This document shows, piece after piece, positions 6,846 through 21,362 of a DNA stretch of 64,000 nt. Position numbers and translations under genes: made by a program. Source of the stretch: Patescibacteria group bacterium (GTDB lineage: Bacteria > Patescibacteriota > Patescibacteriia > Patescibacteriales > UBA12465). Location of the stretch: positions 1,664 through 65,663 of the forward strand of contig JALNZW010000003.1 in the NCBI GenBank assembly GCA_023229115.1, in the 5' to 3' direction. Every line of letters begins with the position of its first letter. Position 1 is the first letter of the stretch. Under the pieces are notes generated by a model. It worked only from the letters and a program-made list of their open reading frames with translations. It did no database searches and was not told where the DNA came from.

Positions 6846-6912
6846 GGTACAGATCATTGCTCCGAGGCTAGGACGCGAACGGGTCTCTCGAACCACGCCC
6901 GTCCCTCGGTAA
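6846..6912. other. GC-rich conserved intergenic motif copy 1 (GGCTAGGACGCGAACGGGTCTCTCGAACCACGCC within a ccgagg...cctcgg stem)
   Basis: Roughly 55% GC island in a roughly 30% GC genome. It shares GGCTA..GACGCG-N3-GGGTCTCTCGAA-NC-NCGC with 12401-12456 and sits immediately 3' of the minus-strand gene ending at 6917. Confidence 0.4.
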
Positions 6913-6916: not shown

Positions 6917-7861
6917 CTATTCAGTAGCCATAATAATCTCTCCACACTTATCTTTATACTGATCTACAATATCAAAAATATCATCTATTTTAGGTTCTCT
7001 AGCAGTGATTTCTTCTCCGTTTTTAAATGTCGCTGTAACTTCCAAAGCATGTGTTTGCATAACTGATTCTATTTCACATTCGGCAATAGCTTGTTTTATT
7101 AAATTCCAATTAGTAATATTTGTAAATGCATAATCTTCTGCTTTTACAATTAATTCGTCTACGTCATGATCAAATATTTTCCGTTGAACATCCTCGGGAA
7201 ATATTTTCTTAATATCTTTGGTATAATCAGCTCCATCACCTGGAGCTTCATATGAAAATTTATTTATATCATAATATGACAACTCATTTGGATAATCTAT
7301 TTTAACTGGACCAGATGAACCACTGACTGTAACTAACTTATTATTTTCAATCACATATTCTCCGCAATAGGCCCAAATATATAATGGGAATAATTCTTGG
7401 TCAGGTTTTAAATTTTTAATTGTACAAAAATTATAGCTATCATCTCGATTTTTCCAGCTAAAATGTTTTTGTATTAATAAATATCTTTCTATGGCTTGCT
7501 CTCTTGGTGTTGGGTTGTAGGCTATATTTATTTTATCTGTTACTTGGGTTGAAGCGTTAACACAAAATTGTTTTGAATGACAACTTAAATAATTTGAGAC
7601 TACCGTTTCACCACAAAGAGAGCAAGTGTCTTGATGTTCCAAGCACTCAACTTCATTTAACTTTTCACAAGCATCTTCATCGATAAAATCATTATTTTGC
7701 AAAGATAAAAGTATTCCAGGGATTATACCTACTAAAATCAGTACTACTCCTAAAATCAAATAGATTTTATTAAATTTATTTTGTTTTTTCTTTTGGGTAA
7801 AATAGATGATCAACCCAATTGTCCCCAAGATTAAAAATATTAGTGATGTTGGTATTGGCAT
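6917..7861 (-). CDS. hypothetical membrane-anchored protein (two N-terminal TM helices, Cys-rich linker, soluble C-domain)
   Basis: 314-aa ORF with no recognised motif. Confidence 0.5.
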   Translation of the reverse strand: MPIPTSLIFLILGTIGLIIYFTQKKKQNKFNKIYLILGVVLILVGIIPGILLSLQNNDFIDEDACEKLNEVECLEHQDTCSLCGETVVSNYLSCHSKQFCVNASTQVTDKINIAYNPTPREQAIERYLLIQKHFSWKNRDDSYNFCTIKNLKPDQELFPLYIWAYCGEYVIENNKLVTVSGSSGPVKIDYPNELSYYDINKFSYEAPGDGADYTKDIKKIFPEDVQRKIFDHDVDELIVKAEDYAFTNITNWNLIKQAIAECEIESVMQTHALEVTATFKNGEEITAREPKIDDIFDIVDQYKDKCGEIIMATE

Positions 7862-7889
7862 AAAGTTATATTAATAAATTTTTTAATCT

Positions 7890-8087
7890 CTAATTAATCT
7901 TAGTGTTATTATTCGTAAAAACATAAAAAAATAGAGCATTTATTATAACAAACAACAAAGAAAAAATAATAGAAAATGCTATAAAACTTTCTTCTAAACT
8001 TTTTTGTAATGCCCAAATATTTATACCAATAAATATTATTCCAATTATTGCATTGATAGAAATGTTTATAAAAATTATTTTTTTCAT
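7890..8087 (-). CDS. small hydrophobic membrane protein (65 aa)
   Basis: Two predicted TM helices, directly downstream of the 8105-9541 gene. Confidence 0.35.
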   Translation of the reverse strand: MKKIIFINISINAIIGIIFIGINIWALQKSLEESFIAFSIIFSLLFVIINALFFYVFTNNNTKIN

Positions 8088-8104
8088 AAGTATATTTTTA
8101 ATCT

Positions 8105-9541
8105 CTATAACTCATCATAATAATTTACAATACCAGAATTTTCCCCTGACACAACTTCCATATTACCAGTAATGTATACATTTAATCTACTTGTGTTTGT
8201 CGCATTAATTACCGCCTCCTCTGCTATAAATTTATCCATTTCAACCCAGCAATCACCTGAATCTATTATCAAATTCTTAGCCGAACCTGTTAAATTAATG
8301 ATACCACCATTAGCATCTAATTTCAATGTATCTATAACCTTAACATTACCCTTTATATTATTAAACCTATGAGTCAATTTTATTTCTAAATTATCAACTT
8401 CTAAACTTCCCAATTTAACATTAGCACCTTCATTTTTTATTTTTTCAACATCTGGCATGGTTATTTCTATCGCTAGGTGCTTGGTTCCTGCTCGAAACAA
8501 AATATTTCTGTTCTCTACGATCCAAGTATCAGTATTAAAAAATGTTTCAAAGCTCGATCTTTTAATATTTAAAGTATTATCAACTTTTTCAAAGTCTAAT
8601 CCGATCTGATCATACTCACTACCTTTAATTAAAATGTCAAAATCATCACCTTGCTTAATTATTATGTCATCAAATTCAACATAAGGTGATATATAGATGT
8701 TTTTAAAATCTTTAATATCAATATGACTCTCCTGAATGTTGGCCTTCATATCTGCTTCTTTTACTTTAAACCCAGAATTCAAATAAATAAATGATAAAAG
8801 AAAAATAATTAAAAAAATACCAAGATAGATAAGCAAACGCAATGATATTTTCTTGTTTAAATATTTCTTGCTAGGAAACAATGAAATTATTCCTAAATTA
8901 ATAATAAATATTAATGGTATCGCCAAAATACAAAAGATAGAAATGAGCATTGGATAATAACCCCAAAATCCAATAACATCTATAATTCTAAAATCAGCCA
9001 TTATGTATCTAAGCCAATGGCTTGAGGGGTTGAAAAATAAATATAAAAATATAACTGTGGATGTCAATATTCCCAAAGATCCAGCACCTAAAAATATTCC
9101 TCCAAATATTTTTTTAAAAGCTAGAACTATCTTTGAATTTGGATATTTTTTAAATTGCTCTGATGTGCCCCTGATAACTAATCCAATTAGACCACCCGCC
9201 AAACTTAAAACAATAAAAGGGAAAAATATACCCAACAAAGCTTCAAAACTGAAAGATGGCTTGGGCAAATATCCATGATTTGAATATGTTAATAAATAGT
9301 TAATTACTACAACTGCTATATTATTAACTAAAGTCCCGATTAATAAAATTGGTAAAAACTCATAGCTTCTATTTTTGTCTTGGACTAAAATCAATAAAAT
9401 ACCTGTCAAAAAAGGTAATAAAAGCATAATAAAAATAACTGGTAGATAGCCAAACATAATATTATCTAATCCACCAGGTAATATATTTAATACTGTAGTA
9501 ACAATTATAGTAAAAATAAAAATGTAAAAAAGTTTTTTCAT
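8105..9541 (-). CDS. membrane protein with C-terminal DUF4097-like (putative adhesin / LiaF-like beta-repeat) domain
   Basis: 478 aa with 6 or so N-terminal TM helices. The C-terminal 220 aa have repetitive beta-strand N/G/D-rich segments (NLTGSAKNLIIDSGD..., VYITGNMEVVSGENSG) typical of DUF4097. Confidence 0.5.
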   Translation of the reverse strand: MKKLFYIFIFTIIVTTVLNILPGGLDNIMFGYLPVIFIMLLLPFLTGILLILVQDKNRSYEFLPILLIGTLVNNIAVVVINYLLTYSNHGYLPKPSFSFEALLGIFFPFIVLSLAGGLIGLVIRGTSEQFKKYPNSKIVLAFKKIFGGIFLGAGSLGILTSTVIFLYLFFNPSSHWLRYIMADFRIIDVIGFWGYYPMLISIFCILAIPLIFIINLGIISLFPSKKYLNKKISLRLLIYLGIFLIIFLLSFIYLNSGFKVKEADMKANIQESHIDIKDFKNIYISPYVEFDDIIIKQGDDFDILIKGSEYDQIGLDFEKVDNTLNIKRSSFETFFNTDTWIVENRNILFRAGTKHLAIEITMPDVEKIKNEGANVKLGSLEVDNLEIKLTHRFNNIKGNVKVIDTLKLDANGGIINLTGSAKNLIIDSGDCWVEMDKFIAEEAVINATNTSRLNVYITGNMEVVSGENSGIVNYYDEL

Positions 9542-9547
9542 AAAAAT

Positions 9548-10204
9548 TTAATCCCAAGTATCTAAACCGCTTCCAGATAAAGGAATTACATCACCTAAAT
9601 ATTTTGGTTTTGAATTAAAAGTAATATTTAACCAAGCTTTAACTTTAGCTAAGACCTCTCTCCTGTTTCTAGTATCCTCACCATAGTATCTTTGCAAATC
9701 AGCGCTGACTCCACAACTATCTATTTCTAATTTATCAGCTATATATAAAGCTCTTGGCAGATGGAAATCTTGTGTTACAACAATCAGTGAATCGGCTTGA
9801 AATATTTCTTTAGCTCTATAAAGACTATCGTAGGTATCAAATCCTGCGTGATCTAAAAAAATATCTTCTGGTTTTATATTATTTTCCAACAAATATTCTT
9901 TAGCAGTATTTACCTCATCATACTCCACTTGCCCATGATCCCCACTAACTAAAATTTTATCCACCTTACCTGTGTTATATAACTCAATGGCTGTTTTGAC
10001 TCTATCTCTAAAAATATCACTCAAATTACCATTGTTCCAAACTTTAGCACCGAGAACTAAGGCAGCTTGCTTGTGGGTATTATCTAAATCACATAAATTA
10101 TTGCCAATTCGATTAATATTGATGTTGATTGCATAAATAGAACCTATCAAAACTATTATACAAATAATAAATATGGTTAATATTTTTTTCATAAACTTTA
10201 CCAA
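9548..10204 (-). CDS. DUF218 (SanA/YdcF/ElyC family) protein
   Basis: 218 aa with an N-terminal TM helix, then VLGAKVWNNG ... ILVSGDHG ... VVTQDFHLPRA, which are typical SanA/YdcF motifs. Confidence 0.7.
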   Translation of the reverse strand: MVKFMKKILTIFIICIIVLIGSIYAINININRIGNNLCDLDNTHKQAALVLGAKVWNNGNLSDIFRDRVKTAIELYNTGKVDKILVSGDHGQVEYDEVNTAKEYLLENNIKPEDIFLDHAGFDTYDSLYRAKEIFQADSLIVVTQDFHLPRALYIADKLEIDSCGVSADLQRYYGEDTRNRREVLAKVKAWLNITFNSKPKYLGDVIPLSGSGLDTWD

Positions 10205-11088
10205 TAAATTACATTTTCACTATCTGACCAGAATACATTTTCATATCTATCTTTAGACAACCTATTATTCTGTTTAATAATCTCACCTTTTTCTGTATCA
10301 AAAACAAACAATGTCCAATATTCATTTTTTGTATCATAATCAACAGATTCAATCTGTGCCTCAATAGCCAACCTGCTACTGTCAGGAGAAAAAACTATAT
10401 GGTTAAAATCAAGTAATTTGGTTTCTTTAAAACGTGTAATAAAAAACCCATCATTAATATCATCTAAATTTAATAAACGCAAACTTAAATTTTGGTTGTT
10501 ACAACTATGATTAATTTCCATAACAGGTGGATTTTTAACACATTCACTTTCTAAAAAGACCACCTTCTCACCGTCAGACGATTTAGCAACTAACTTACCT
10601 TTAGATGGTAGTTCCACTGTTTTTCTTGTCCTGAAATCTAAATAATAATTAGTAAACGGTCCATTATATAATTTTGAATCTTGCGGATAATACCAAGCTG
10701 ACCCAACTAAGGTATCCCTAGATAAAGGTGTAAGTATTGGATCTATATAGTATGTGTAAAAACCCAAAGAATCTTTAATCTCTCCATTTTGCATTATTCT
10801 AGTCCAGCCAACACCAAAATCAGTATCTTCTCCTATGTGATCAAAAGAAAATATATCATCATATTTATCTATGCTAAAAATAGATGGTTGGTTAAAACTT
10901 AAAATCTGTCCTGATAAATTATTAAACTCATTATCAATATCATCAAGCTTATTTTGTATATGACAATTAAAATATGGCGGTTGTATCAAACAAGCATCAC
11001 CACGTTTAAACCAGTAGATAAAAATAGCAACTATTGCTAATATTATTATGGCTAAAATTATACAAATTTTTCTTTTCATATTGTTCAT
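10198..11088 (-). CDS. hypothetical N-terminally anchored protein, beta-rich (TolB/beta-propeller-like repeats)
   Basis: 296 aa with an N-terminal TM helix and an FSPDSSRLA-type repeat. Confidence 0.45.
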   Translation of the reverse strand: MNNMKRKICIILAIIILAIVAIFIYWFKRGDACLIQPPYFNCHIQNKLDDIDNEFNNLSGQILSFNQPSIFSIDKYDDIFSFDHIGEDTDFGVGWTRIMQNGEIKDSLGFYTYYIDPILTPLSRDTLVGSAWYYPQDSKLYNGPFTNYYLDFRTRKTVELPSKGKLVAKSSDGEKVVFLESECVKNPPVMEINHSCNNQNLSLRLLNLDDINDGFFITRFKETKLLDFNHIVFSPDSSRLAIEAQIESVDYDTKNEYWTLFVFDTEKGEIIKQNNRLSKDRYENVFWSDSENVIYW

Positions 11089-11108
11089 TATACCTTATTT
11101 AAGACAAA

Positions 11109-11136
11109 CAAAAAACACCTCTAGAGGTGTTTTTTG
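11109..11136 (-). terminator. rho-independent terminator (acacctctagaggtgt palindrome plus T5)
   Basis: Perfect 16-bp palindrome followed by TTTTT, just past the stop of 11147-12202. Confidence 0.6.
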
Positions 11137-11146
11137 AAAATATATA

Positions 11147-12202
11147 CTATTTCTTCCAAACATTCTTTGCAAACTTCCATCCATATTTTGCAATAATAAG
11201 CATAATAAACAGATAGATAATATATTGTAGAATTAGGAATAACAATGATACTAGATTAATAGTAATATCTTGTGCAACCGTATTAATATCTCTAACAAAA
11301 GATTTTACTGCTACTTTCCATGATTCTTTTAAATTTTGCCCATCAATAAACTTATTCTCCACTACTCGAACATTAAAATATGTATATTCTAGTCGATCAA
11401 GCTGTTCCGCTTTAGATCTATTAATTCTTTCTAATTGTGCATTTATATTTATCTTTTCCTGAGTTAATCTTTCAATAATTCTTATTTTACTATCAATAAT
11501 TTTAGCTAGACTTTCTACGTCTTGAGTTCTGGTAGCTAAATCTGTAATATCGTCATAAGAGCTAACTGCATTATTTAGAGTTTCCTCAATAGAAGCCATT
11601 TTCTTTTCCAATATTTCTACTTCGCTAGTGTAGTCGTCAATTAATCTTTTAATGGTATATGTATTTTCATTTAATTCTTTAGGATCTAGTTCTTCAATAA
11701 TAGCTAATATCTCATTAACACTATCATGCTTAACTTTAAAATTATAATTACAGCTTCTTTCATATTCATTGGCATTTTCAAAAATTACATCTTCGTTTGA
11801 TTTCAGGTCAGCAACTTTTTTGCAAGTATCTTCTAGATGACGGGTTTCAATATTTGCACCATACTCAGTGACTTCGAAATCTTCAGCATCATCTCCCATT
11901 GTAGCTGTATTATCCATTGGGGGCATGAACGGTTCTGTGGCTATCACATTTCTTATAGATAAACCAACTGAACCACCCGATTCGCCATAACCCATATCTT
12001 TCATAGCGTATTCTTCATCATCCATGTCAAACATAGCATCCTGCGTGACCACACTTCTACCATTAGACCCAGGAGTTAAAGATTTAAAAGAAGATCCGAT
12101 TAAACGAAAGGCTAAAGTAATTACAATAATTACCACTAAGGCTAACCCAGCAATTTTAAAAATATTGGCTGGTTTTAAATTAAGATTGTTTGGAAATTGC
12201 AT
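11147..12202 (-). CDS. hypothetical coiled-coil protein with N- and C-terminal TM segments (DUF4349-like architecture)
   Basis: 351 aa with an N-terminal TM helix, an acidic region, a long heptad-like coiled coil and a C-terminal TM helix. Confidence 0.45.
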   Translation of the reverse strand: MQFPNNLNLKPANIFKIAGLALVVIIVITLAFRLIGSSFKSLTPGSNGRSVVTQDAMFDMDDEEYAMKDMGYGESGGSVGLSIRNVIATEPFMPPMDNTATMGDDAEDFEVTEYGANIETRHLEDTCKKVADLKSNEDVIFENANEYERSCNYNFKVKHDSVNEILAIIEELDPKELNENTYTIKRLIDDYTSEVEILEKKMASIEETLNNAVSSYDDITDLATRTQDVESLAKIIDSKIRIIERLTQEKININAQLERINRSKAEQLDRLEYTYFNVRVVENKFIDGQNLKESWKVAVKSFVRDINTVAQDITINLVSLLFLILQYIIYLFIMLIIAKYGWKFAKNVWKK

Positions 12203-12284: not shown

Positions 12285-12400
12285 TTTTAACCAAACAAAA
12301 AATACCTCGAATTTGAGATATTTTTTGCAACCTACTACGCATTTCAGTTCGAACCCCTTTCCCAGTAGGAAATAAAAGTATCGAACTAAAAATTGTTTTT

Positions 12401-12456
12401 GGCTAATATTAGACGCGTATGGGTCTCTCGAAACGCGCACTAGGTTGGCTCTGCGG
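12401..12456. other. GC-rich conserved intergenic motif copy 2 (GGCTAATATTAGACGCGTATGGGTCTCTCGAAACGCGC...)
   Basis: Shares the GACGCG-N3-GGGTCTCTCGAA core with 6846-6912. It also contains the 11-mer AATATTAGACG, which recurs at 20588-20598 and 21320-21330. Confidence 0.4.
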
Positions 12457-12528
12457 ATTACATATTTTCAGAGTTATTTAACATATTCCCTGCGATTAAA
12501 ATTAGTATGGGCAAACTGGAAAAAATAA

Positions 12529-13191
12529 TTAATTAATCAAAATCAGCCAAGCTTTTAAATTTTCTTTTTTTGTAAATTTATTTAGTTTTCTCCCATATCT
12601 ATTCGCCATAACACTTAGAATATAATTTATAGTTTTTTCCATTATTTCTAAGCGATCACCCGTAAACACAGCTTCTTCATTTGGTTCAAAGTTTTTATGA
12701 TAGTTCTCTATATGTATTCTATTTCTAAGCCATGCAAAATTATCTAAATATTTATAGATATTGCCATTTTCACTAAAGAGCAAATTGAATTTTCTGCAAT
12801 AATCGATAATTTCTTTAAAGTCATATCTTTTCATGGCGTAATACTTTTGAGCCTCTCCAGTGAGAACGTCAATTCTTTCTTTTTGCCTTTTGTCTTTTCC
12901 AATTTTAGATTTTATTTTTAAGACATCGTCTGAGGCCAAGCATTCTGGTAAATCATTAGTTGCGTTATCTAACCTTATTAACAAATCTATTAGTATTGCC
13001 TCTATAATCGAAACTAAAAAAATTGTGATCGGTTTATTATAACACATAGCATCTTCCTCCAAACCATTTTTCTTCGCTTCATACAATAAAAAAAGTATTT
13101 TAAAATTGTAAATTATATTGCCTCCTATATTAAAATTCCAGATAAATTCAGATAAATACATTGTTACTTCGGTTTTGTCATACTTAAACAT
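12529..13191 (-). CDS. hypothetical protein (220 aa), last gene of the putative island
   Basis: ORF with no recognised motif. It sits between the ATPase cluster and the GC-rich motif. Confidence 0.45.
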   Translation of the reverse strand: MFKYDKTEVTMYLSEFIWNFNIGGNIIYNFKILFLLYEAKKNGLEEDAMCYNKPITIFLVSIIEAILIDLLIRLDNATNDLPECLASDDVLKIKSKIGKDKRQKERIDVLTGEAQKYYAMKRYDFKEIIDYCRKFNLLFSENGNIYKYLDNFAWLRNRIHIENYHKNFEPNEEAVFTGDRLEIMEKTINYILSVMANRYGRKLNKFTKKENLKAWLILIN

Positions 13192-13245
13192 GGTGGTTAA
13201 ACTAAAAGATATTATCCAATTAAATTTTATATATTAAACTAAAAT

Positions 13246-15021
13246 TTAAAACCCCTTACCTCCAAACAGTAAATCATCTTTATCTAATTTTCTTACAATG
13301 TTTTCTTTCTCAATATCAAACCCCTGAGGGACATCACTTTTAATCATGCTAACAATAAGTTGGACATCATACTGAGTACTATAACGTTTAAAAAGTTTGA
13401 TAAAATTTTTCACAGGGTTATCCCCCCAATTTTCCAAGCCGCCATCTAAATAACAAAAGTTAAAATATGAATATTTAGAATAATACAATAAGATGGCTAC
13501 AATAAACGCCACGCACTGCACTCTTGTGGCGGTGTAACCGTCTCCCTTGCCTGTTAATTTTGCTTGATTTAGCGTAACTGTTTTAAAATCTACATTATTT
13601 TCCTTATTCATATTAATGCCAATAACTGCAGTATCATCCATAGACTCTTTATATATTTCGCTAAAAATATTTTGAATTTCCCTATATTCATTTCCAGAAA
13701 GCACCTTATCGACTTCGTTTTTTATTTCATCTATAATAACCTCAATTTTTCTTTTTAGTTGTTGAACGCCTTCTTCGAGTTTCTTAATATCACTAATATT
13801 ATCCAACTGATTTCTATAATCCTTAATTTCAGATTCAATATCAATAATATCGCGCTGATAAATTTTAAACTTAACGAAAGTGTCTTTTTCTTTTAATGTC
13901 TCAAGCGCAAAAAAGCGTTTTTCATTATATTCAATCAACTTTGTTTGGATACTTTCTAATTCATTTTCAAGTTCCACAAGCTCCTCTTTTAAATACTTTT
14001 CTCTTTCCTTTGTTATATCTCTTTCAAAGCTAATTAAGTCTTCGTAATCATTAACCAATTCCTTGGGAAAATAAATTTTTGCCTCATTAAAAATTTTTTC
14101 AATTTCTTTTAAATCAACACTTTCCCGGCTTTCTATAGATTCGTTTATCTTATCTTTTTCATAAGTTACATAGTATTTTCTTGAATTTAAATCAGAAATA
14201 TTTTTCTCAATATCTTCAATTAAATCCTTATTTAATCCGGCTTCCTTTGCAAAAAAATTAAATTGGTCTATTTTTCTCTGCACAGATTCTCTTTCTTTAT
14301 TTTTTGTATCAATTATAGTTTGAATTATATTTTTTTCGTCAGACACACCATTCTCATTCGATTTTCTTTTAATATAACGCTCTTCGTGAGAAATATCATC
14401 TGCGAGTTCAAATTTGTCCAACAATAAAACGCCATTGCCTCCAAATAAGTCAAACAAAAATGGTTTCCAGTACCTATCTTTACTCTTAAAACTTTTCATT
14501 TTAAAAATATCGCCGTATTCATCCTGTTTTCTAAGAATGTATTTCAAAAAGTGACGGTAATTGTGATCCTGAAGCTTATTAAAGTTTAAATATGACTCCA
14601 ATATTTTAACAGCATTCTGTTCATTTGACTTAGTGTTTATAGACACTTCAGTATAGTCCCATGAGTCCATATCTATATTTGTAAAATCCTGATTCTTTTC
14701 TTCATGCAACTTAAAAGAGACTCTTGAACTAATATTTACGCTTCTTCTTATTGTTAAATACTTTCCACTATTTAATTTTATTTCAAGAAAAAATGTCCAA
14801 TCACGAAACTCAAGATAATTTTTTTTAAAAAAATCGCTTTGTTTTTTGAGTAATAAAAAATCAATTAAATAAACTAATGCTGTTTTACCTAAATTATGTT
14901 CATGAAATTTTCCATCTTTGTCAACCTCATTCACGACATCACCAAAAACAATATTCAAACCTTTATCGAATAATATTGGCTTCATTTTTAAATTGTTCGA
15001 ATATATTTTGCTCAACATCAT
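13246..15021 (-). CDS. P-loop NTPase with SMC/ABC-like architecture (DUF2326/YydD-like; candidate ABC-3C-type ATPase)
   Basis: 591 aa. The N-terminal GLNIVFGDV...HNLGKTALVYLIDFLL is a Walker A (GKT) in the SMC/RecF/ABC-like N-terminal style. There is a long central coiled coil (ELVELENELESIQTKLIEYNEK...) and a C-terminal YLDGGLENWGD block. Confidence 0.6.
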   Translation of the reverse strand: MMLSKIYSNNLKMKPILFDKGLNIVFGDVVNEVDKDGKFHEHNLGKTALVYLIDFLLLKKQSDFFKKNYLEFRDWTFFLEIKLNSGKYLTIRRSVNISSRVSFKLHEEKNQDFTNIDMDSWDYTEVSINTKSNEQNAVKILESYLNFNKLQDHNYRHFLKYILRKQDEYGDIFKMKSFKSKDRYWKPFLFDLFGGNGVLLLDKFELADDISHEERYIKRKSNENGVSDEKNIIQTIIDTKNKERESVQRKIDQFNFFAKEAGLNKDLIEDIEKNISDLNSRKYYVTYEKDKINESIESRESVDLKEIEKIFNEAKIYFPKELVNDYEDLISFERDITKEREKYLKEELVELENELESIQTKLIEYNEKRFFALETLKEKDTFVKFKIYQRDIIDIESEIKDYRNQLDNISDIKKLEEGVQQLKRKIEVIIDEIKNEVDKVLSGNEYREIQNIFSEIYKESMDDTAVIGINMNKENNVDFKTVTLNQAKLTGKGDGYTATRVQCVAFIVAILLYYSKYSYFNFCYLDGGLENWGDNPVKNFIKLFKRYSTQYDVQLIVSMIKSDVPQGFDIEKENIVRKLDKDDLLFGGKGF

Positions 15022-15254
15022 AAAACAAATTCTATTACATCTTTATTTTTATAATACTTAATTTTTCTTATTGCGAATAAAAAACAAAGTGATTTTAAAT
15101 ATAAACCCTTTACTCGCTGACCTTTTATAACGATCAGTCTCCGAAGTAAATCATCATATCCAATTATTTTATTTTCCATCAGAATTTTTAACAACACAGA
15201 GCTAATATTTAAAACAGAGTATTCTAAATTTAAATGTTTTGTTGGTTTTAACAT
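15018..15254 (-). CDS. small protein (78 aa from internal Met; the ORF track gives a 129-aa version overlapping the upstream gene) - possible middle component
   Basis: The start was chosen at MLKPTK to avoid a 149-nt overlap with 15259-16236. Its stop overlaps the ATPase start (ATGA-type coupling). Confidence 0.35.
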   Translation of the reverse strand: MLKPTKHLNLEYSVLNISSVLLKILMENKIIGYDDLLRRLIVIKGQRVKGLYLKSLCFLFAIRKIKYYKNKDVIEFVL

Positions 15255-15258
15255 AATA

Positions 15259-16236
15259 TTATGGATTAATACCAAGATCACAATTGAAATACATATAATG
15301 AAGAAGCGTAAATATTTTTCTTTTATCGTATCCCAAGTCTTTAGTAAATTTTTCTTCCACTCTATTATAAACTTCTTGAAAAAACTCAGAAATACTATAA
15401 TATTCATCCTTTTTTGAAATATAAATTTCTTGGAGTTCGTTAAAAACAGAATTATAACAATTTAAAACTTCTTCATTAGCGTCTTCGCTCAAAAAAGATC
15501 TAATAGGGAGATGATGCCTAATATTTTTTCTAACTATATTTTCAAAATAATCTGAAGACATATTATTCTTAATATTCTTTATCTTAATGTCTTTTCTGGT
15601 CGGAATTTTAGTTATTTTCATCTCTGCGATTACGCCATTCTTAATTTCATCGCGAAGTTTTAATACCAAATTTTTTATATCCTCTTCGTTTAAACGAATC
15701 GGTTCATGTAAATTAATTTTAATGTAATCTGCTATATTAATATCTAATATTTTTAAAAGTTTTGACCATTTAACGGGGCTTAGTTGATTAATATCATTGA
15801 CAAGGTCGAAAATATCTTTAATTTGTGTTGTTTTATCAAAATTAAATTTTCCATCAATCTCCTTTTCAAAATCAACAGATTTATACCCACCAGAGCTTTT
15901 TTTACCAATAATAAAAATTATTAACTCGGGAAATTCAAGCGCTCTTGTCGAATGGCTTCTAAGAGTGTCTTTAATTTTTTCAGATCTACTTTCTGACGTT
16001 ATCTGATATGCCACTCCAGCACCTTTGTCACCAAGATCAATGCCTTTTATATTTTTTTCTACCTGATTTAAATTTTTTAAATTAAGATTATAGATTTCAT
16101 TCAAAAAAGTACAAAAAAAATCCTCACTTTTTTTATGAATATCAAATAAACACTGAGAGCCTCTTTGCTCAACATTATTTCGCAATACTCCGAGAGCATC
16201 ACTAATTTGCAAATTAATACCTATACTTTTTAACAT
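15259..16236 (-). CDS. hypothetical protein, candidate effector/sensor of the ATPase cluster (C-terminal R-x4-H HEPN-like motif RKNIRHH)
   Basis: 325 aa with conserved-looking IKGIDLGDKGAGVAYQITS and C-terminal YFENIVRKNIRHHLPIRSF. It is co-directional with, and tightly spaced to, the small ORF and the ATPase. Confidence 0.45.
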   Translation of the reverse strand: MLKSIGINLQISDALGVLRNNVEQRGSQCLFDIHKKSEDFFCTFLNEIYNLNLKNLNQVEKNIKGIDLGDKGAGVAYQITSESRSEKIKDTLRSHSTRALEFPELIIFIIGKKSSGGYKSVDFEKEIDGKFNFDKTTQIKDIFDLVNDINQLSPVKWSKLLKILDINIADYIKINLHEPIRLNEEDIKNLVLKLRDEIKNGVIAEMKITKIPTRKDIKIKNIKNNMSSDYFENIVRKNIRHHLPIRSFLSEDANEEVLNCYNSVFNELQEIYISKKDEYYSISEFFQEVYNRVEEKFTKDLGYDKRKIFTLLHYMYFNCDLGINP

Positions 16237-16369
16237 TTAACTTTAATTATACATCCTTAATGCAAACATAAAATGTGTGAAAAATTGCGTTTTTAGATAT
16301 ATAGAAAAACAATTTTAATATCTTTATTTTAACAGAAAAACCGTTTTAAATCAAAATGACATTCATAAA

Positions 16370-16393
16370 CAAAAAGACGCCTAAACGGCGTCT
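16370..16393 (-). terminator. rho-independent terminator overlapping the methyltransferase stop codon
   Basis: agacgcc/ggcgtct 7-bp stem with the TAG stop in the loop, followed by TTTTT on the minus strand. Confidence 0.55.
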
Positions 16394-17631
16394 CTTAGTG
16401 ATTCTCCTAATTTTTTAATAACTCCGACAACTAAAGCATTGCCCATAATGAATGCTCTTTTAATATCAGGAGCCATTTCAGTATGATTATCAGGAAACAT
16501 ATTTAATCTTTCAAGCTCCAAAGGCATTAATCTTCTCAGCCTTCCTGACTTTGTCTTTATTACATGTTTAAATCTTGATGGAGATGTTCCTCCTTCACCA
16601 GTAACTATTGTTCGAGAAGGTTTATTAATTAAATCAGGAAAGGCCATTTTTCCTTCAGAATAATTATACTCATGTCCGTCTTTAGATTTCCTTGGTGCCG
16701 TCTTTCCACCCTTTAAATATTCCCACCTCTTGATATCAGCAGGTTTAATAAAAAACTCTTCGGGAACTTTTTTTTCATCAATTAAAAAGTCTCCCAATAT
16801 TGAACTCTTACCCTTATAATCTGATTCAACCTTCATTGTTGTTACATGCCCGTTTATCATTACTCCGGCGTTTTCAAATGGACTCTTCGATGGCATATCC
16901 TTTGAAAATTTTTCAGAAACATAAACATAATCAGTGCCAATTTCAAATTGACTAAATTTAACCACGTCTTGATTAACCTTAAAAGCCTTAGCTATTAAAC
17001 CATCATTATTTATCCATTTCTTTTTATCTTTACAGGCTAAAACTTTTTTCCAAATAGATGTATTTTGTTTATAACCCATTATATAAATACGCCGACGACG
17101 TTGAGGAAAACCATAATCAGCGGCATTAATAACTCTCCACTCTACTGCGTAACCGAGTTTAGCTAAAGAGGACAACATAATAGCAAAATCACGACCTCTT
17201 TGTTTAACAGGAGATTTTAATAATCGATCAACATTTTCCAATAATAGAAACTTAGGAGTATTTTTGCCCTTCTTATTGAGAATATTAAAAATAGACCACC
17301 ATAGAACTCCTTTCTTTCCCTCCAGCCCTTTTGATTGCTTAAGTGTCCTGGCAACTGAATAATCTTGGCAAGGAAAACCGCCAACTAATAAATCATGATT
17401 AGGAATGTCATCAAATTTCATATCAACCACCTCTTGTATATCTTCACAAGAGTGTCCTTTACCACCAAAACGAGCCACATAAATATCTGAAGCATACTGT
17501 TTTTTGGCTCCTGGCTCCCACTGACTACTCCAAACAACTCTATATTTTGTATTATTATTACTGGCACCCTCAAGACCAATTCGAAAACCGCCCACACCAG
17601 CAAAAAGCTCAACGATTTTTATCTCCTTCAT
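16381..17631 (-). CDS. DNA (cytosine-5)-methyltransferase
   Basis: Motif I ELFAGVGGF, motif IV GGFPCQDYS, motif VI ENV and motif X MGNALVVGV. It is 416 aa, matching the M.Sau3AI size class. Confidence 0.9.
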   Translation of the reverse strand: MKEIKIVELFAGVGGFRIGLEGASNNNTKYRVVWSSQWEPGAKKQYASDIYVARFGGKGHSCEDIQEVVDMKFDDIPNHDLLVGGFPCQDYSVARTLKQSKGLEGKKGVLWWSIFNILNKKGKNTPKFLLLENVDRLLKSPVKQRGRDFAIMLSSLAKLGYAVEWRVINAADYGFPQRRRRIYIMGYKQNTSIWKKVLACKDKKKWINNDGLIAKAFKVNQDVVKFSQFEIGTDYVYVSEKFSKDMPSKSPFENAGVMINGHVTTMKVESDYKGKSSILGDFLIDEKKVPEEFFIKPADIKRWEYLKGGKTAPRKSKDGHEYNYSEGKMAFPDLINKPSRTIVTGEGGTSPSRFKHVIKTKSGRLRRLMPLELERLNMFPDNHTEMAPDIKRAFIMGNALVVGVIKKLGESLRDAV

Positions 17632-17697
17632 AATATTTCTCTAATTAATAAGCTATGCATGTAGCATAGCATATCAAAAAAAATTGATCAACACCCC

Positions 17698-19125
17698 TTA
17701 TTTTTCGAGGTTTTTCCTTATATAATCAGCATTAAGCCAGAAACAATGTTTCGTATAAAACTTACTACCTGTAAATTCATCTTCCGTTGGAAGTTCTATT
17801 ACATCAGAGGAATCCTTTCCATGAGGCCTAACATGTGCAACTCCATTAAACTTTGATGTTGGAAAGAAGGTAAATCTTCTTTCTTTGCCATTTTTATATT
17901 TTTTTATTTCTTTAACTATTTTACCTTTATCAACTAATTTCTTAGTCTTGCTCCAAACACTCTCAGCGTAGTTCATGTCAGAGGCGGGAAAGTTCCAAAA
18001 TTTATAGCCCTCAAAATGAATTAGATCTTTTGTCTTATCTTTATCTTTCCTAAAAATTATAAACAAAAACCTATCTTCTTCTAACATCTTGAAGAAATTA
18101 GTTTCCTCCCATTTCTGTTTCAGAATTTGTTTATAGTTAAAATATGGAAACGAGATTGATTCTTTTAATTTACCATTACTTTCTAACACCACAACTTTCA
18201 TTGTGACATTAGATTTCTCAAACTCCTCAACCTTATTAGCTGATATGCCGAGCATGAGATTGGCAAGTAATCTTTTATATTGCTTAGTTTTCTTATTAAC
18301 CTTAAGGCCAATCTCAGAAAGTATCTGTTTATCAGACATCCCAATAAAAGGAGCTAATCTATCATCAACAGACTTATCTATTGTCTTTCCTTTTTCGGAT
18401 ATAGATTGAATATCCCCCTCCAATCCCATAATCTTTTCATGGAGAATAAAATTTAAATAGTTTTGCTTCAAAGAAAAGGCTCTTGGCTTTGCTTGTATGT
18501 CAGAGTTTGGCTGCTTTCTTGTAATAGAACTATTAGCCGCCTTCGTGCAAGCACCGAGATAAAAAGTCTCGCCCTCTGAAAGTAAATGCGCCTCCCCTCT
18601 TTTAATTTTATTTATAATATACTCCCAATCATTCTTAATCTGCAAAGCATCTTCAGCAGAAATCTTGTTCACTAAATCAAGTTCATAAAGAAACTTAAAT
18701 TTATATTCCAATAAACTTAGGTCGCTCTCATAAAGATAAAACATAAGTAATATTAACTTATTCTTATCCAAAAATGAACTATGCTCCCAATCTTCTAATA
18801 CAACAGATACATAGTCTATCATTGAGAATACAAGGCGTTCTTTAACGGCATATTCTTTGCTTTTATGTTTTTTTATTGGCGTTGTTTTTAATTCAACTCC
18901 GGCAATCTTAAAGTCAGCCTCATGTCTATTGTCCACCAAAGCCTGGTTAAATACATATTTTTGAACAAGTTGACCAAGAAATCCTTTTCTTTTTTTTCCG
19001 TGTTTTTCTATATCTCTTTTTGCCTCAGCAACATCATCTTTTTCCATCACATCAAGAAGGCGCTTATCCATAAAGGCTAAGGCATCATTAAAGACTTCTT
19101 CTTTTGTGTTATAAACTTTTAACAT
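17698..19125 (-). CDS. type II restriction endonuclease, Sau3AI/MutH family (predicted GATC-specific)
   Basis: 475 aa. The MutH-like catalytic region is DNRHEADFKIAGVELKTTPIKK (D...E-x-K with the GVELKT motif), and the gene lies directly upstream of the C5-MTase. Confidence 0.7.
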   Translation of the reverse strand: MLKVYNTKEEVFNDALAFMDKRLLDVMEKDDVAEAKRDIEKHGKKRKGFLGQLVQKYVFNQALVDNRHEADFKIAGVELKTTPIKKHKSKEYAVKERLVFSMIDYVSVVLEDWEHSSFLDKNKLILLMFYLYESDLSLLEYKFKFLYELDLVNKISAEDALQIKNDWEYIINKIKRGEAHLLSEGETFYLGACTKAANSSITRKQPNSDIQAKPRAFSLKQNYLNFILHEKIMGLEGDIQSISEKGKTIDKSVDDRLAPFIGMSDKQILSEIGLKVNKKTKQYKRLLANLMLGISANKVEEFEKSNVTMKVVVLESNGKLKESISFPYFNYKQILKQKWEETNFFKMLEEDRFLFIIFRKDKDKTKDLIHFEGYKFWNFPASDMNYAESVWSKTKKLVDKGKIVKEIKKYKNGKERRFTFFPTSKFNGVAHVRPHGKDSSDVIELPTEDEFTGSKFYTKHCFWLNADYIRKNLEK

Positions 19126-19131
19126 AAATTA

Positions 19132-19938
19132 TTAAACAATCAACTTTATTTTTGAATCTCTCAAAAATCTGGTTAAGGTTCTTTTTTCTTGACCACCCCT
19201 TGGCACTCTTCCGTAAAATCTTTGTGATCCGACTCTTTTAGTACAGTAACTTATGTAAAGACCGTGCTTAGCTCTTGTCATTGAAACATAAAGCAATCTT
19301 CTTTCGTCTCCAATAAATTCACCTTCATTTTTCCCTGGTAAAAACTCATCTTCAGCCCCAACAATAAAGCAAACATCAAATGTTAACCCTTTAGCTTTGT
19401 GCATAGTAAGAATACTAACAGCATCCTTTTCTGCACTCTGTTCTATTCTATCAGAATTAATACCGATAGACTTTACTATGCTCTCTAATGTATCAGATTC
19501 ATCTGAAATATATTTAACAAAATATTTTAAAATCCTCTCACGTAAAACGGTATCTTCCACATAGTGCTCTATAACTCCTTTAACTTTATCAATTAAATTG
19601 TCTATTTTATTAAATTCTTCTAAATCATCTTCTACTTTTTCAACGAAACTCTTTATCTTTTCTCCATATTTACTAACAACAATATTTTGCTTTATTTCTT
19701 GTAAAGATTTACTGAATCTAAGATTTTTATCAACTGCTATTCGAAAAACATCATCAATACTTTTTTCTCCAATATTATTTTTAGCAAGCTCCAAGAGTGT
19801 TCTCCACGCTAAATCATCTTCTTTATTCGATAATAATCTAAAAATAGAAAGGACGACTCTAAATTCTGACTGGCTTTCTAATGCTGAATCAGGGGCACCC
19901 GCAATCATGATACCATTACCAACAAGCACATCACTCAT
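19132..19938 (-). pseudogene. helicase C-terminal fragment (SF1 UvrD-like motifs V-VI) of a disrupted nuclease-helicase gene
   Basis: ILTMHKAKGLTFDVCFIVGAED ... LLYVSMTRAKHGLYI are UvrD/PcrA helicase C-terminal motifs. No Walker A/B is found in this ORF. Confidence 0.55.
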
Positions 19939-19973
19939 TAAACTTAAAATGGCAGCACTTCTTGATAATATGA

Positions 19974-20558
19974 CTATTTTTTCTGCTGGAACACCTTTAC
20001 TAATACATCAAATGCTGATAAATAAGTCTTTCCAAGACCTGTGGCGAATACTACAAGACCTTTGTTTTTGCCAGATTTTCTTGTTTCATCTAAAGCCTCA
20101 AGGGCACGATTTTGAATATAGTGAGGCTCAACATCTCCCAACCTATTTAAATATATTTTATAAAGTTGTTCATCACCTATAAAACTTCTTCTTATTTCCC
20201 AAATGCAAGATTGAGGCTCTTTTCTTATTAAATCATTGGTAAATCGTATTAGATGAAAACCCTCTTTTATAATTTCGTTTTGCTTGTTTTGTAAATGATT
20301 AAAATATTCTTTAGTAACAGCTCCTTGCGCGTGATAATAGAGGCCGTCACACTCTATTGCATATTTTTTAAATTTTGTTGTTATAACAAAATCTAGTCTA
20401 TACACACCAGAACCATCTGGTTTAGGTATTTCATATTCTGGAGTAATATAATCAAGCCCCTTTTCTCCAAAATCTTTATAATAAACATTGATTATAAAGG
20501 TTTTACCCAAATCATTTAGCTTGTTTTTATATTTAAATAAAAAATCATTTAGTTTCAT
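19974..20558 (-). pseudogene. N-terminal fragment: DUF559/Vsr-like PD-(D/E)xK endonuclease domain plus helicase Walker A (ATGLGKTY), truncated
   Basis: YRLDFVI...AIECDGLYYH nuclease motifs, then GLVVFATGLGKTYLS. The ORF ends 20 residues later. The next ORF is in a different frame and carries only C-terminal helicase motifs. Confidence 0.5.
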
Positions 20559-20566
20559 ACAAACAA

Positions 20567-20586
20567 GGTTGATTGTAAAATCAACC
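20567..20586 (-). promoter_or_regulatory. 7-bp stem hairpin (ggttgat/atcaacc) immediately upstream of the 20558 start codon
   Basis: Perfect inverted repeat 9 nt before the ATG, adjacent to the AATATTAGACG 11-mer and a TATAAT box. Confidence 0.3.
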
Positions 20587-20682
20587 GAATATTAGACGAT
20601 AAATTATATAATTATTGTATCATTTAAAACGGCCTGGGTCAAAAAAAATAAATCCCTAAATATAAGGTATTTTTATACTTTA

Positions 20683-20979
20683 TCACTTCTTTTTTCTGCA
20701 GACATCGCACCCCGCCATGCCAGTAAACCATGGCCAATGTTCAATGCTATTACTAAATTTAATATATGAATTTGATACTGGTCTATGAATTCTATTCTTT
20801 TTACATTTTGGACATAGAATGCCATTACAAAGACAGGTAACTGAAATTAGCTTTTCACCTTCTTCTGGACTGTTATTGAAAAAATCGTTACCCCAATTTA
20901 AATATTTTTTCATTATTTTTCCATTATATTCCCCGCAAACTTTGCACTCAATTAAACCTTTCGAAATTTCGTTTTCCAT
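20683..20979 (-). CDS. Cys-rich zinc-ribbon protein (hypothetical)
   Basis: 98 aa with CKVC, CLC...CPKC and CDVC pairs. Confidence 0.5.
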   Translation of the reverse strand: MENEISKGLIECKVCGEYNGKIMKKYLNWGNDFFNNSPEEGEKLISVTCLCNGILCPKCKKNRIHRPVSNSYIKFSNSIEHWPWFTGMAGCDVCRKKK

Positions 20980-21049
20980 AAATTTATTGATTAATAATAA
21001 AAAACCTCTTCCCCTAGATTGAGAAAGAGTTTTTATTTATGAAAATAAA

Positions 21050-21170
21050 AAATCGACCTTTATCTTCCCCATCTAGGGCTAGGTTTAGCACCTTCTGAAT
21101 GGATTACTTCAGGGTTGCTGGCAGGTCATCGGGCTAGTTCCCTCACTGCACTCTTTATAAATAGATTATT
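21050..21170 (-). ncRNA. candidate structured ncRNA (GC-rich island, unidentified family)
   Basis: A roughly 55% GC, 120-nt island in an AT-rich spacer. On the minus strand an extended -10 (gTGcTATAAT, plus-strand 21190-21200) lies just upstream, and a hairpin plus T-run (about 21005-21040) lies downstream. Nested complementarity is present (gcag..ctgc, cggg..ccc). Confidence 0.35.
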
Positions 21171-21249
21171 CAATTGTAATTATATTATAGCACTATTACT
21201 ATCAAGAATAAAACAAGGCTCGGATTCGAACTAAGATTATCCTTCATAT

Positions 21250-21312: not shown

Positions 21313-21362
21313 TTTTAGTAATATTAGACGACTCCTGTCGGTCTACTACACTAAAACGTTGT

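What the first reader, a model, noticed from the sequence alone, without database searches (positions are those of the whole stretch)
6846..6912. Recurring GC-rich intergenic motif GGCTA..GACGCG-N3-GGGTCTCTCGAA-NC-NCGC, copy 1
This is a 55-60% GC element in a roughly 30% GC genome, and it recurs at 12401-12456 with a 12-nt identical core (GGGTCTCTCGAA) and conserved flanks. Both copies lie immediately 3' of minus-strand genes and next to clusters of terminator hairpins. Both can fold, with an outer GACGCG/CGCG(n)TC stem enclosing the conserved core. It could be a small RNA, a 3'-UTR element, a REP-like repeat or a protein-binding site.
Basis: seen in the sequence. Interest (0 to 1): 0.55.

Follow-up and report, generated by a model that had tools for sequence, protein, structure and literature searches.

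The report
Serine-recombinase attachment-site relics near tRNA-Asn
The two GC-rich repeats are most likely not RNA genes but leftover docking (attachment) sites where mobile defence-gene islands, probably moved by a large serine recombinase, plug into the 3' end of a tRNA gene in these small-genome (Patescibacteria) bacteria.

Summary
An identical 12-nt core (GGGTCTCTCGAA on +, TTCGAGAGACCC in the sense of the genes) sits at 6881-6892 and 12421-12432, inside the two most GC-rich non-tRNA islands of a 30% GC window. The RNA readings are not supported: no Rfam hit, no significant fold, and no consensus structure among 12 homologues.

Comparison with about 40 related contigs shows that both copies lie exactly at strain-specific synteny breakpoints, at GAGC(C)A, which is the 3' end of tRNA-Asn. 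In relatives the copy-2 sequence directly follows an intact tRNA-Asn or tRNA-Gln. It opens islands of restriction-modification and other defence genes that carry a large serine recombinase (LSR).

Two LSR clades go with two versions of this arm, whichever tRNA is used. The core starts 16-18 bp from the junction. A T-loop-like 8-mer lies at 13-20 bp on tRNA-type arms and at 18-25 bp on element-type arms, which is the 5-bp attB/attP offset known for serine integrases.

Copy 1 is a relic arm fused to a pseudo-tRNA-Asn 3' end. Four different sequences are joined to it in other strains. The window itself has no LSR, so its sites are relics or serve non-autonomous elements. This is a new member of a known kind, of moderate interest.

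The parts
12421..12432 (-). Core of copy 2 (TTCGAGAGACCC in gene sense). It starts 18 nt from the central A of GAGCCA. Proposed distal (zinc-ribbon-domain) recognition motif of an attP-type half-site.
12433..12451 (-). GAGCCA + ACCTAGTGCGCGT: the junction core (identical to the tRNA-Asn 3' end GAGCCA) and the crossover-proximal part of the element-side arm. Homology with L012/L025/L035 stops at 12451|12452.
12400..12420 (-). Distal part of copy 2 (ATACGCGTCTAATATTAGCCA). It is homologous to the pseudo-tRNA part of copy 1 and shares CGTCTAATATTA with the trailer of the window's tRNA-Asn.
   Evidence: by eye
12449..12476 (-). Degenerate element-type left arm (AACTCTGAAAATATGTAATCCGCAGAGC), the right end of the defence island 12452-21362. 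It has TCAGAGTT at 18-25 nt from the centre, as L040 has TCAGAACT.
   Evidence: weak (14/28 to other P arms, by eye)
12296..12326 (-). Intrinsic-terminator hairpin that follows the arm. It is conserved with the terminators after the same arm in L009, L024 and L033.
6881..6892 (-). Core of copy 1. Here it lies upstream of the GAGC junction in the same orientation, so it is not at a canonical half-site distance. Read as a relic arm. One strain group carries a SNP in it (TTCGAAAGACCC).
6859..6880 (-). Pseudo-tRNA-Asn 3' end (GTTCGCGTCCTAGCCTCGGAGC), with the same length as T-loop-to-discriminator of the real tRNA-Asn and the last 11 nt identical. The junction is at 6859|6858, and four different right-hand flanks are joined here in other strains.
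6893..6910 (-). Left arm of copy 1 (ACCGAGGGACGGGCGTGG), alignable to ACCTAGTG--CGCGT of copy 2 with a 5-nt insertion. It starts a few nt after the stop codon of ORF 6917-7861.
21363..21437 (-). tRNA-Asn (GTT), the primary integration target. Its 3' end is ...GGTTCGAATCCCACCCTCGGAGCCA.
21320..21362 (-). Trailer of tRNA-Asn (ACAACGTTTTAGTGTAGTAGACCGACAGGAGTCGTCTAATATTAC). It is a diverged arm of the second type (..AGACCGAC at the same distance), related to the arm found with clade-2 recombinases. The same sequence follows copy 1 in L005/L027.
12452..21362 (-). Variable island between tRNA-Asn and copy 2: SAM riboswitch + 98-aa ORF, helicase fragments, MutH-like endonuclease + C5 methylase, and an ABC-3C system (SMEK, MC, DUF2326, 220 aa). 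No recombinase gene. Other strains have different islands here.
6917..12202 (-). Six-gene cluster between the two copies (351 aa, 296 aa, DUF218, DUF2807, 65 aa, 314 aa). It travels as a block with copy 2 on one side and copy 1 on the other, and is 85-99% identical in relatives whose outer flanks differ.

Best explanation
Both copies are DNA-level attachment-site (att) sequences of a family of mobile islands and cassettes. These insert at the very 3' end (GAG|CCA) of tRNA-Asn, and in other lineages of tRNA-Gln, in Patescibacteria.

Shown by comparison:
(i) Homology between strains breaks exactly at GAGC(C)A next to both copies.
(ii) In relatives the copy-2 sequence directly follows an intact tRNA and opens a 3.5-4.7 kb block of defence genes, followed by a large serine recombinase (LSR) gene on the opposite strand.
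(iii) The arm type co-varies with the LSR clade, not with the tRNA.

Inferred: the LSR catalyses the insertion, with crossover in or next to GAG. The invariant core TTCGAGAGACC, 16-18 bp from the centre, is the distal motif read by the recombinase's zinc-ribbon domain in an attP-type half-site. The tRNA T-loop, read on the other strand as TTCGAACC, supplies the equivalent motif 5 bp closer in the attB-type half-site.

Copy 2 (12400-12451) is such an element-side arm, abutting the degenerate end of the neighbouring defence island. Copy 1 (6859-6910) is a relic of the same arm fused to a pseudo-tRNA-Asn 3' end, and it serves as a secondary landing site. The window has no LSR gene, so its sites are relics or belong to non-autonomous elements that could only move with a recombinase supplied in trans.
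For: Breakpoints:
- L009 is 99% identical to window 6859-10789, then continues with a different sequence.
- L005/L027 are 85% identical to 6859-12285, then continue with the window's own tRNA-Asn trailer.
- L036 is 99% identical up to 6857 and then unrelated.
- L012/L025/L035 are 95-96% identical up to 12451 and then differ.

An intact tRNA is followed directly by the arm in L024, L033 and L085 (tRNA-Asn) and L086 (tRNA-Gln).

A 14-kb island lies between tRNA-Asn and copy 2 in one strain, bounded by 38-nt direct repeats with 3 mismatches, and carries an LSR with Resolvase+Recombinase+Zn_ribbon_recom domains.

LSR homologues are present in every island of this kind that was fetched. All 5 independent clade-1 LSR loci carry the core, and both clade-2 loci (L079 at tRNA-Asn, L091 at tRNA-Gln; 96% identical LSRs) carry the other arm, TGTGAGAGACCGAC.

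Half-site geometry: TTCGAACC lies at 13-20 on tRNA arms and TTAGAACC/TCAGAACT at 18-25 on element arms; the core starts at 16-18. This matches the 5-bp ZD-motif shift described for serine integrases (PMC3783163).

The LSR aligns to the TP901-1 and SPbeta integrases.

There is no RNA signal.
Against: - No LSR or other recombinase gene is in the window.
- No empty tRNA site and no circular attP junction was recovered, so the crossover is bracketed rather than mapped.
- The right end of the 14-kb LSR island has tRNA-type spacing on its left half and element-type on its right (attL-like). That is not the attR configuration a canonical serine integrase should leave.
- No element-type arm was found next to any LSR gene.
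- The LSR gene sits mid-island, 3.5-4.7 kb from the tRNA, not at an end.
- attP-like and attB-like arms share up to 38 nt, which is more than is usual for serine integrases.
- In copy 1 the core lies on the opposite side of the junction, at no canonical distance.
- A 43-nt homologue in unrelated 48% GC contigs (L023 group) has no tRNA and no island.
Confidence: 0.68

Rival explanations
1. It is a functional RNA element in the 3' trailer of tRNA-Asn/tRNA-Gln precursors or in mRNA 3' UTRs, for example a processing signal, a protective hairpin or an sRNA. The conserved core would be a loop presented by a stem.
For: The element is always transcribed in the tRNA sense, between a tRNA (or tRNA-like end) and an intrinsic terminator. 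In copy 1 and copy 2 the core can be drawn as a 14-nt loop closed by 8-9 bp stems that differ in sequence (and by eye). Copy 1 is closed by the two strands of the tRNA-Asn acceptor stem.
Against: No Rfam family matches at E<=10 or at the gathering threshold. Folding z-scores are not significant, and the better strand differs between the copies. RNAalifold finds 0 consensus pairs in 12 homologues. The stem is absent in L040 and displaced in the c2var type. The 7 substitutions between window and L027 copy 1 include none that is compensatory, and two or three break pairs (by eye). The arm type follows the recombinase clade, not the tRNA.
Confidence: 0.1
2. They are neutral relics: decaying duplicates of the tRNA-Asn 3' end and trailer, left by old integrations or duplications, with no present function. 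The shared core would be residual identity.
For: The window has no recombinase. One strain group has a SNP inside the copy-1 core. Copy 1 has the core at a non-canonical position. The pseudo-tRNA parts are clearly degenerate.
Against: The 11-nt core is invariant in 12 distinct junctions from lineages with 28-42% GC, while everything around it has diverged. The 24 nt around the copy-1 core are unchanged between window and L027, while the remaining 30 nt carry 7 changes. Copy 1 is demonstrably used as a junction in at least three other arrangements in near-identical strains.
Confidence: 0.15
3. The junction modules belong to a different recombination system, such as a tyrosine integrase targeting the tRNA 3' end, an integron-like attC system or a transposon end. 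The LSR would be a passenger, for example an invertase or resolvase of the defence islands.
For: Long direct repeats that include a tRNA 3' end are typical of tyrosine-integrase islands. L034 shows six modules in about 3 kb flanking 0.3-0.8 kb cassettes, which is integron-like. The attL/attR geometry does not fit a canonical serine integrase.
Against: No tyrosine recombinase, IntI or transposase is linked in any of the roughly 15 island loci annotated. The single IS200 TnpA, in L009, has its own hairpin ends. The junction GGTTGGCTC does not fit the integron core site GTTRRRY (by eye). LSR clade and arm type co-vary perfectly in 7 loci.
Confidence: 0.07

Closest known systems
Attachment sites of large serine integrases (Listeria A118/LI, Bxb1, phiC31, TP901-1, SPbeta)
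   Same: The linked enzyme has the Resolvase + Recombinase + zinc-ribbon architecture and aligns to the TP901-1 and SPbeta integrases. The site has a short central core flanked by half-sites. A distal 8-11 bp motif lies 5 bp further from the centre in element-type than in target-type half-sites, as described for LI integrase.
   Different: The target is the 3' end of a tRNA gene, and the T-loop itself supplies the target-side motif. Element and target arms share up to 38 nt. The integrase gene is mid-island. Junctions with attL-like or attP-like geometry occur at both ends and inside arrays. Cargo is defence genes, not a phage.
SCC elements of staphylococci (CcrAB/CcrC serine recombinases inserting at the 3' end of rlmH/orfX)
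   Same: Serine recombinase; one conserved chromosomal landing site at the 3' end of a housekeeping gene; tandem composite arrays separated by repeated att sequences; many elements lacking their own recombinase (from general knowledge of SCC biology).
   Different: Different target (tRNA versus rlmH), different host phylum, different cargo, and no sequence relation was tested here.
tRNA-gene-targeting genomic islands with tyrosine integrases (P4-like, ICEs, pathogenicity islands)
   Same: Insertion at the 3' end of a tRNA gene; a copy of the tRNA 3' end at the far boundary; strain-variable cargo; tandem accretion.
   Different: No tyrosine integrase was found in any locus. The recombinase present is a serine enzyme.
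Integron attC sites and cassette arrays
   Same: In L034, six short recombination modules separate small, mostly single-gene cassettes.
   Different: No IntI, no GTTRRRY core and no attC-type folded bottom strand (one search found no common fold). The modules mimic a tRNA 3' end.
LOOT RNA motif (Rfam RF03000)
   Same: It lies next to the same LSR genes in three relatives. Its 3' strand, TTTCGGGAGACCC, resembles the core.
   Different: The window's two copies do not match the LOOT model even at E<=10. LOOT is about 125 nt with its own fold.

Membership tests
Large-serine-recombinase attachment site | A cognate LSR gene (Resolvase + Recombinase + Zn-ribbon) in the same element | tested here: inconclusive
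   Present in 7 related island loci. Absent from the window.
Large-serine-recombinase attachment site | Sequence exchange at one defined short core | tested here: met
   All synteny breakpoints fall at GAGC(C)A: window 6859|6858 and 12451|12452. Resolution is a few bp; the dinucleotide is not mapped.
Large-serine-recombinase attachment site | Distal (ZD) motif shifted by 5 bp between attB-type and attP-type half-sites | tested here: met
   TTCGAACC lies at 13-20 in five tRNA arms (CTAGAACC at the same position in the L012 pseudo-tRNA arm) and TTAGAACC/TCAGAACT at 18-25 in four element arms. The core starts at 16-18. The rule is from PMC3783163.
Large-serine-recombinase attachment site | Arm sequence specific to the recombinase | tested here: met
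   Clade-1 LSRs (80-100% identical) go with TTCGAGAGACC arms in 5 loci. Clade-2 LSRs (96% identical to each other, 70-75% to clade 1) go with TGTGAGAGACCGAC arms in 2 loci. Each clade is found at both tRNA-Asn and tRNA-Gln.
Large-serine-recombinase attachment site | Integrated element flanked by attL (B-P') and attR (P-B') | tested here: not met
   The left junction fits attL. The right end of the 14-kb LSR island is again B-type/P'-type, and no P arm was found near LSR genes. One small cassette in L009 does have c2var on the left and a P arm on the right.
Large-serine-recombinase attachment site | Recombination by the enzyme in vivo or in vitro | not testable with these tools
   Needs experiments.
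tRNA-targeting genomic island boundary | Insertion at the tRNA 3' end, with a tRNA-3'-end-like repeat at the distal boundary and strain-variable cargo | tested here: met
   tRNA-Asn/Gln + arm. Pseudo-3' ends lie at distal boundaries. At least five different islands occur downstream of the same tRNA-Asn.
Structured non-coding RNA (sRNA, riboswitch, ribozyme, 3'-UTR element) | Match to a curated family, or a conserved secondary structure with covariation | tested here: not met
   No Rfam hit. z-scores not significant. 0 consensus pairs.
REP/MITE-like dispersed repeat | Many copies dispersed through intergenic regions | tested here: not met
   2 copies in 64 kb. In about 40 related loci, copies occur only at junctions next to GAGC(C)A.
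tRNA gene or tRNA-like RNA | Cloverleaf detected by ARAGORN or the Rfam tRNA model | tested here: not met
   Only tRNA-Asn at 21363-21437 is detected. Copy 1 keeps only the acceptor strands and a T-loop-to-3'-end-like segment of 22 nt.
Integron attC | IntI tyrosine recombinase nearby and a GTTRRRY core at cassette boundaries | tested here: not met
   No integrase of that type in the annotated loci. The boundary reads GGTTGGCTC.

The most novel reading that the evidence does not exclude
Patescibacteria may carry an undescribed cassette system run by a large serine recombinase. Its roughly 60-bp att modules would imitate a tRNA 3' end (with a 5-bp spacer change) plus the TTCGAGAGACC arm. Defence genes would then be stacked and swapped in arrays behind tRNA-Asn/Gln, functionally like an integron but with serine chemistry. 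The orphan LOOT RNA motif would be a component of the autonomous elements.
Probability: 0.3. Interest if true: 0.7.

Novelty: new member of a known kind. Interest (0 to 1): 0.45.

Why it matters
If right, the motif marks a precise integration hotspot that shapes strain-level variation in defence systems in candidate-phyla-radiation bacteria, whose mobile elements are poorly known. It yields predicted attB/attP pairs for a large, highly conserved family of serine recombinases. In these pairs the target-side recognition motif is the universally conserved tRNA T-loop, which could be useful as a source of new integrase tools. It also gives a genomic context for the orphan LOOT RNA motif. For annotation, it warns that GC-rich intergenic islands in AT-rich genomes can be recombination sites rather than RNAs.

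Tried and rejected
- Known RNA families: Rfam at gathering and at E<=10 on both copies and on five relatives gave nothing for the element.
- Hammerhead-like look of the c2var plus strand (TTGATGAG...GAAA): the C3 position is wrong, stem II does not pair, A9 is lost in a homologue, and there is no Rfam hit.
- preQ1-I-like look (GGTTC..ACCC): no Rfam hit.
- tRNA or minihelix reading of copy 1: ARAGORN is negative, and the acceptor-like stem is not maintained in L027.
- IS200/IS605 end: the only TnpA (L009) has its own CCACCAG..CTGGTGG hairpins, and TnpA is absent elsewhere.
- DGR/retroelement (IMH-like GC-rich repeat): only one degenerate RT fragment, in L034.
- Coding reading (..SFERPV..): it is in frame only by chance in L023, with no ORF in the Patescibacteria.
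- 'Island B is the mobile island': weakened, because the 351-aa protein has 764 homologues across Patescibacteria, although the six-gene cluster itself is not conserved in a 76% relative.
- Crossover centred on the core itself (dyad symmetry): the dyad centres differ between copies 1 and 2, and the half-site similarity is weak.
- Viral contigs: two scans gave only chance hits.
- Literature search for the core sequence: no paper. The LOOT motif is not discussed in the main text of its source paper, and no supplement is held.
- Look-up of the window's RpoD to find an empty site: not on record.

Full report
**1. The observation**

The 12-mer GGGTCTCTCGAA is present exactly twice, at 6881-6892 and 12421-12432, both on the + strand. 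The window is 30.0% GC. The two elements are the strongest non-coding GC peaks besides the tRNA: 0.70 and 0.58 in 50-nt windows. Read in the sense of the surrounding minus-strand genes, the homology extends over about 45 nt: ACCKAGKG...TTCGAGAGACCC-RTWCGCGTC...AGCCA. The statement that both copies fold is weak. None of the four strand/copy combinations folds better than shuffles (z from -1.23 to +0.40), and the better strand differs between the copies.

**2. Not a known or detectable RNA**

Rfam finds only tRNA-Asn (21363-21437, minus) and a SAM riboswitch in the window. Searches at E<=10 over both elements give nothing relevant. ARAGORN finds no tRNA there. With 12 non-identical homologues collected later, RNAalifold predicts no consensus pair at all. 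Between the window's copy 1 and its orthologue in an 85%-identical genome (L027) there are 7 substitutions. All lie outside a 24-nt invariant centre, none is compensatory, and several break the stems proposed for either strand (counted by eye).

**3. What the relatives show**

A scan of one genome per species with GACGCGNNNGGGTCTCTCGAA returned about the chance number of hits in GC-rich genomes, plus three AT-rich contigs that are true relatives. A metagenome scan with TTCGAGAGACCCRTWCNCNTC added nine more. BLAST against the window shows that both copies sit exactly at breakpoints of synteny.

*Copy 1:*
- L009 is 99% identical to window 6859-10789 and then continues with a different sequence.
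- L005/L027 are 85% identical to 6859-12285 and then continue with the window's own tRNA-Asn downstream flank (21222-21386).
- L036 is 99% identical up to 6857 and then unrelated.
- The window's own arrangement recurs in many contigs.
- In gene sense, all four right-hand flanks start after ...CCTCGGAGC.

*Copy 2:* L012, L025 and L035 are 95-96% identical up to 12451 and then differ from the window and from each other. All of them read ...GAGCCA|ACCTAGTGCGCG.

GAGCCA is the 3' end of the window's tRNA-Asn (...CCCTCGGAGCCA). The 22 nt of copy 1 that precede the junction (GTTCGCGTCCTAGCCTCGGAGC) have the same length as T-loop-to-discriminator of that tRNA, and the last 11 nt are identical. This segment is a pseudo-tRNA-Asn 3' end.

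**4. The arm follows real tRNAs and opens defence islands**

In L024, L033 and L085 an intact tRNA-Asn is followed directly by ACCYAGTRCGTCTTTCGAGAGACCC... plus a terminator. In L086 the same arm follows tRNA-Gln(ttg). What follows is variable and defence-rich:
- AlwI, DpnII, Eco57I-like and other restriction-modification systems;
- Hachiman (HamA + helicase);
- Fic proteins.

In the window, the 8.9 kb between tRNA-Asn and copy 2 holds a MutH-like endonuclease with a C5 methylase, an ABC-3C system and helicase fragments. Assemblies repeatedly break inside the tRNA or just beside the arm, as expected for strain-variable DNA.

**5. The recombinase**

In the strain represented by L033/L035/L060, a 14-kb island lies between the tRNA-Asn CCA and GGGAGCCA|copy 2. 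The loci overlap. The island is bounded by 38-nt direct repeats with 3 mismatches (GGAGCCAACCYAGTGCGNNTTTCGAGAGACCC) and encodes a 440-aa protein with Resolvase, Recombinase and Zn_ribbon_recom domains. Homologues are in the L024 island (95%) and the L079 island (70%). The family is large and highly conserved, and it aligns to the TP901-1 and SPbeta serine integrases.

I fetched loci for further homologues. Every one has a tRNA, then the arm, then 3.5-4.7 kb of cargo, then the LSR on the opposite strand.

The arm type follows the enzyme rather than the tRNA:
- Five loci with clade-1 LSRs (80-100% identical) carry the TTCGAGAGACC arm, at tRNA-Asn or tRNA-Gln(ttg).
- Two loci with clade-2 LSRs (96% identical to each other, 70-75% to clade 1) carry ...TGTGAGAGACCGAC..., at tRNA-Asn (L079) or tRNA-Gln(ctg) (L091).

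This is the strongest argument that the arm is element-borne and cognate to the recombinase. The window's tRNA-Asn trailer (..GTAGTAGACCGAC..) is a diverged arm of the second type, and it also follows copy 1 in L005/L027.

**6. Geometry**

I aligned 12 distinct junctions on the A of GAG.
- The core starts 16-18 nt to the right in all of them.
- On the left, real tRNAs present their T-loop on the other strand as TTCGAACC at 13-20.
- The non-tRNA left arms of L025, L034 (two) and L040 present TTAGAACC/TCAGAACT at 18-25, exactly 5 bp further out. The window's 12449-12476 is a degenerate version of this arm.

For the Listeria A118-type integrase, the zinc-ribbon domain reads a 9-bp motif at positions 16-24 of attP half-sites, and the same motif shifted 5 bp toward the centre in attB (PMC3783163). 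This step is inference.

A profile of the element-type left arm finds six such modules within about 3 kb of L034. They separate 0.3-0.8 kb cassettes, one of which holds a degenerate reverse-transcriptase fragment. It also finds one module closing a small cassette inserted at copy 1 in L009.

**7. What the two window copies are**

Copy 2 is a clade-1-type P' arm placed directly against the degenerate end of the neighbouring island, so the junction looks attP-like. Copy 1 is composite: a relic of the same arm (with a 5-nt insertion, and with the core on the 'wrong' side of the junction) fused to a pseudo-tRNA-Asn 3' end. Its GAGC end is where other strains carry a c2var-led cassette, a type-2-led island or unrelated DNA, so it behaves as a secondary landing site. 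A SNP in the copy-1 core in one strain group fits a relic. The window has no LSR.

**8. What does not fit**

- I found no empty tRNA site and no circular joint.
- The right end of the 14-kb island has attL-like rather than attR-like geometry.
- No element-type arm lies next to any LSR gene.
- The LSR sits mid-island.
- Arms share more identity than is usual for serine integrases.

The enzyme may have relaxed site rules, as some serine transposases and Ccr recombinases do (my recollection, not tested). Arrays may also grow by co-integrates and homologous exchange.

Four related 48% GC contigs (L023 group) carry a 43-nt stretch at the end of a PPIase gene, before pdxJ. It matches the arm at 17 of 20 positions beyond the search pattern (my binomial estimate for that many matches by chance is about 3e-8), yet it has no tRNA and no island. 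I cannot explain it.

**9. Comparison and verdict**

The system works like serine-integrase att sites, and in its array behaviour like SCC elements at rlmH. It shares its target logic with tRNA-targeting islands.

Membership in 'LSR attachment site' is supported on four features: a defined core, the 5-bp shift, enzyme-arm co-variation, and a linked enzyme in relatives. It fails on the expected attL/attR pairing and is untested biochemically.

The finding is therefore best filed as a new member of a known kind, of moderate interest. A less certain but more interesting possibility is a serine-recombinase cassette system with tRNA-mimicking modules.

Noticed in passing
L024 832-961 (-), L060 1777-1903 (+), L089 873-1001 (-): The orphan Rfam motif LOOT (RF03000) lies divergently next to the 5' end of the serine recombinase gene in three islands. 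Its 3' strand, TTTCGGGAGACCC, pairs with GGTCTTCCGA at its 5' end and resembles the core. L085 has a different GC-rich structured segment in the same place.
   Followed up: partly
window 21057-21163 (-) with ORF 20683-20979 (-): A SAM (S-box) riboswitch precedes a 98-aa ORF with no Pfam hit. It lies inside the variable island, just downstream of tRNA-Asn.
   Followed up: no
window 12529-16236 (-): A complete-looking ABC-3C (ABC-three-component) defence system: SMEK/CTD12 protein, MC6/MC8 middle component, DUF2326 ATPase and a 220-aa protein without a family.
   Followed up: partly
window 16381-20558 (-): C5 cytosine methylase plus a 475-aa MutH-domain endonuclease (a likely restriction-modification pair). 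Next to them are two short ORFs that look like fragments of a UvrD/ResIII helicase-nuclease (268 aa and 194 aa).
   Followed up: no
L023 3255-3310 (also L026, L037, L041): Contigs with 48% GC and a core proteobacterial-like context (scpAB, PPIase, pdxJ) contain CTGTCTTTCGAGAGACCCGTTCCCATCAAATAACGCAGTAAAC. This is about 85% identical to the Patescibacteria arm and overlaps the last 10 codons of the PPIase gene.
   Followed up: partly
L034 200-3150: An array of six tRNA-3'-end-like modules (RGTTCKRAYATCGTCC..GGAGC) separates very small cassettes. One cassette holds a truncated, frameshifted reverse transcriptase with a DGR-like IGNLTSQ/YADD signature.
   Followed up: partly
L009 3300-3990: An IS200-type element (Y1 transposase, 152 aa) with its own CCACCAG...CTGGTGG end hairpins is inserted just after the arm and terminator.
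   Followed up: yes
window 6852-6857 and 21438-21443: GATCAT lies directly beside copy 1's junction and, in inverted orientation, directly 5' of tRNA-Asn. This could be chance or the scar of an inversion between acceptor-stem strands.
   Followed up: no
window 12337-12375 and 21225-21250: Further T-loop-like fragments (GGGGTTCGAAC; TTAGTTCGAATCCGAGCC) lie 80-190 nt downstream of the junctions. A similar one is in L079 (GTGGTTCGAATCCCATT). They may be older att relics.
   Followed up: no
L055-L057 position 1; L080, L082, L083 ends: Independent assemblies end at the same base 72 nt upstream of the 351-aa gene, or inside tRNA-Asn. This indicates strain heterogeneity at these junctions within samples.
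   Followed up: partly
L060 1634-1735, L024 1000-1104, L085, L086, L089 (upstream of the LSR start): About 100 nt directly upstream of the recombinase start codon are conserved across clade-1 loci (TTACAACWACATTRATGACRCGACCC....ARGTAGTCCAG). This could be a promoter/operator or a site for the enzyme.
   Followed up: no
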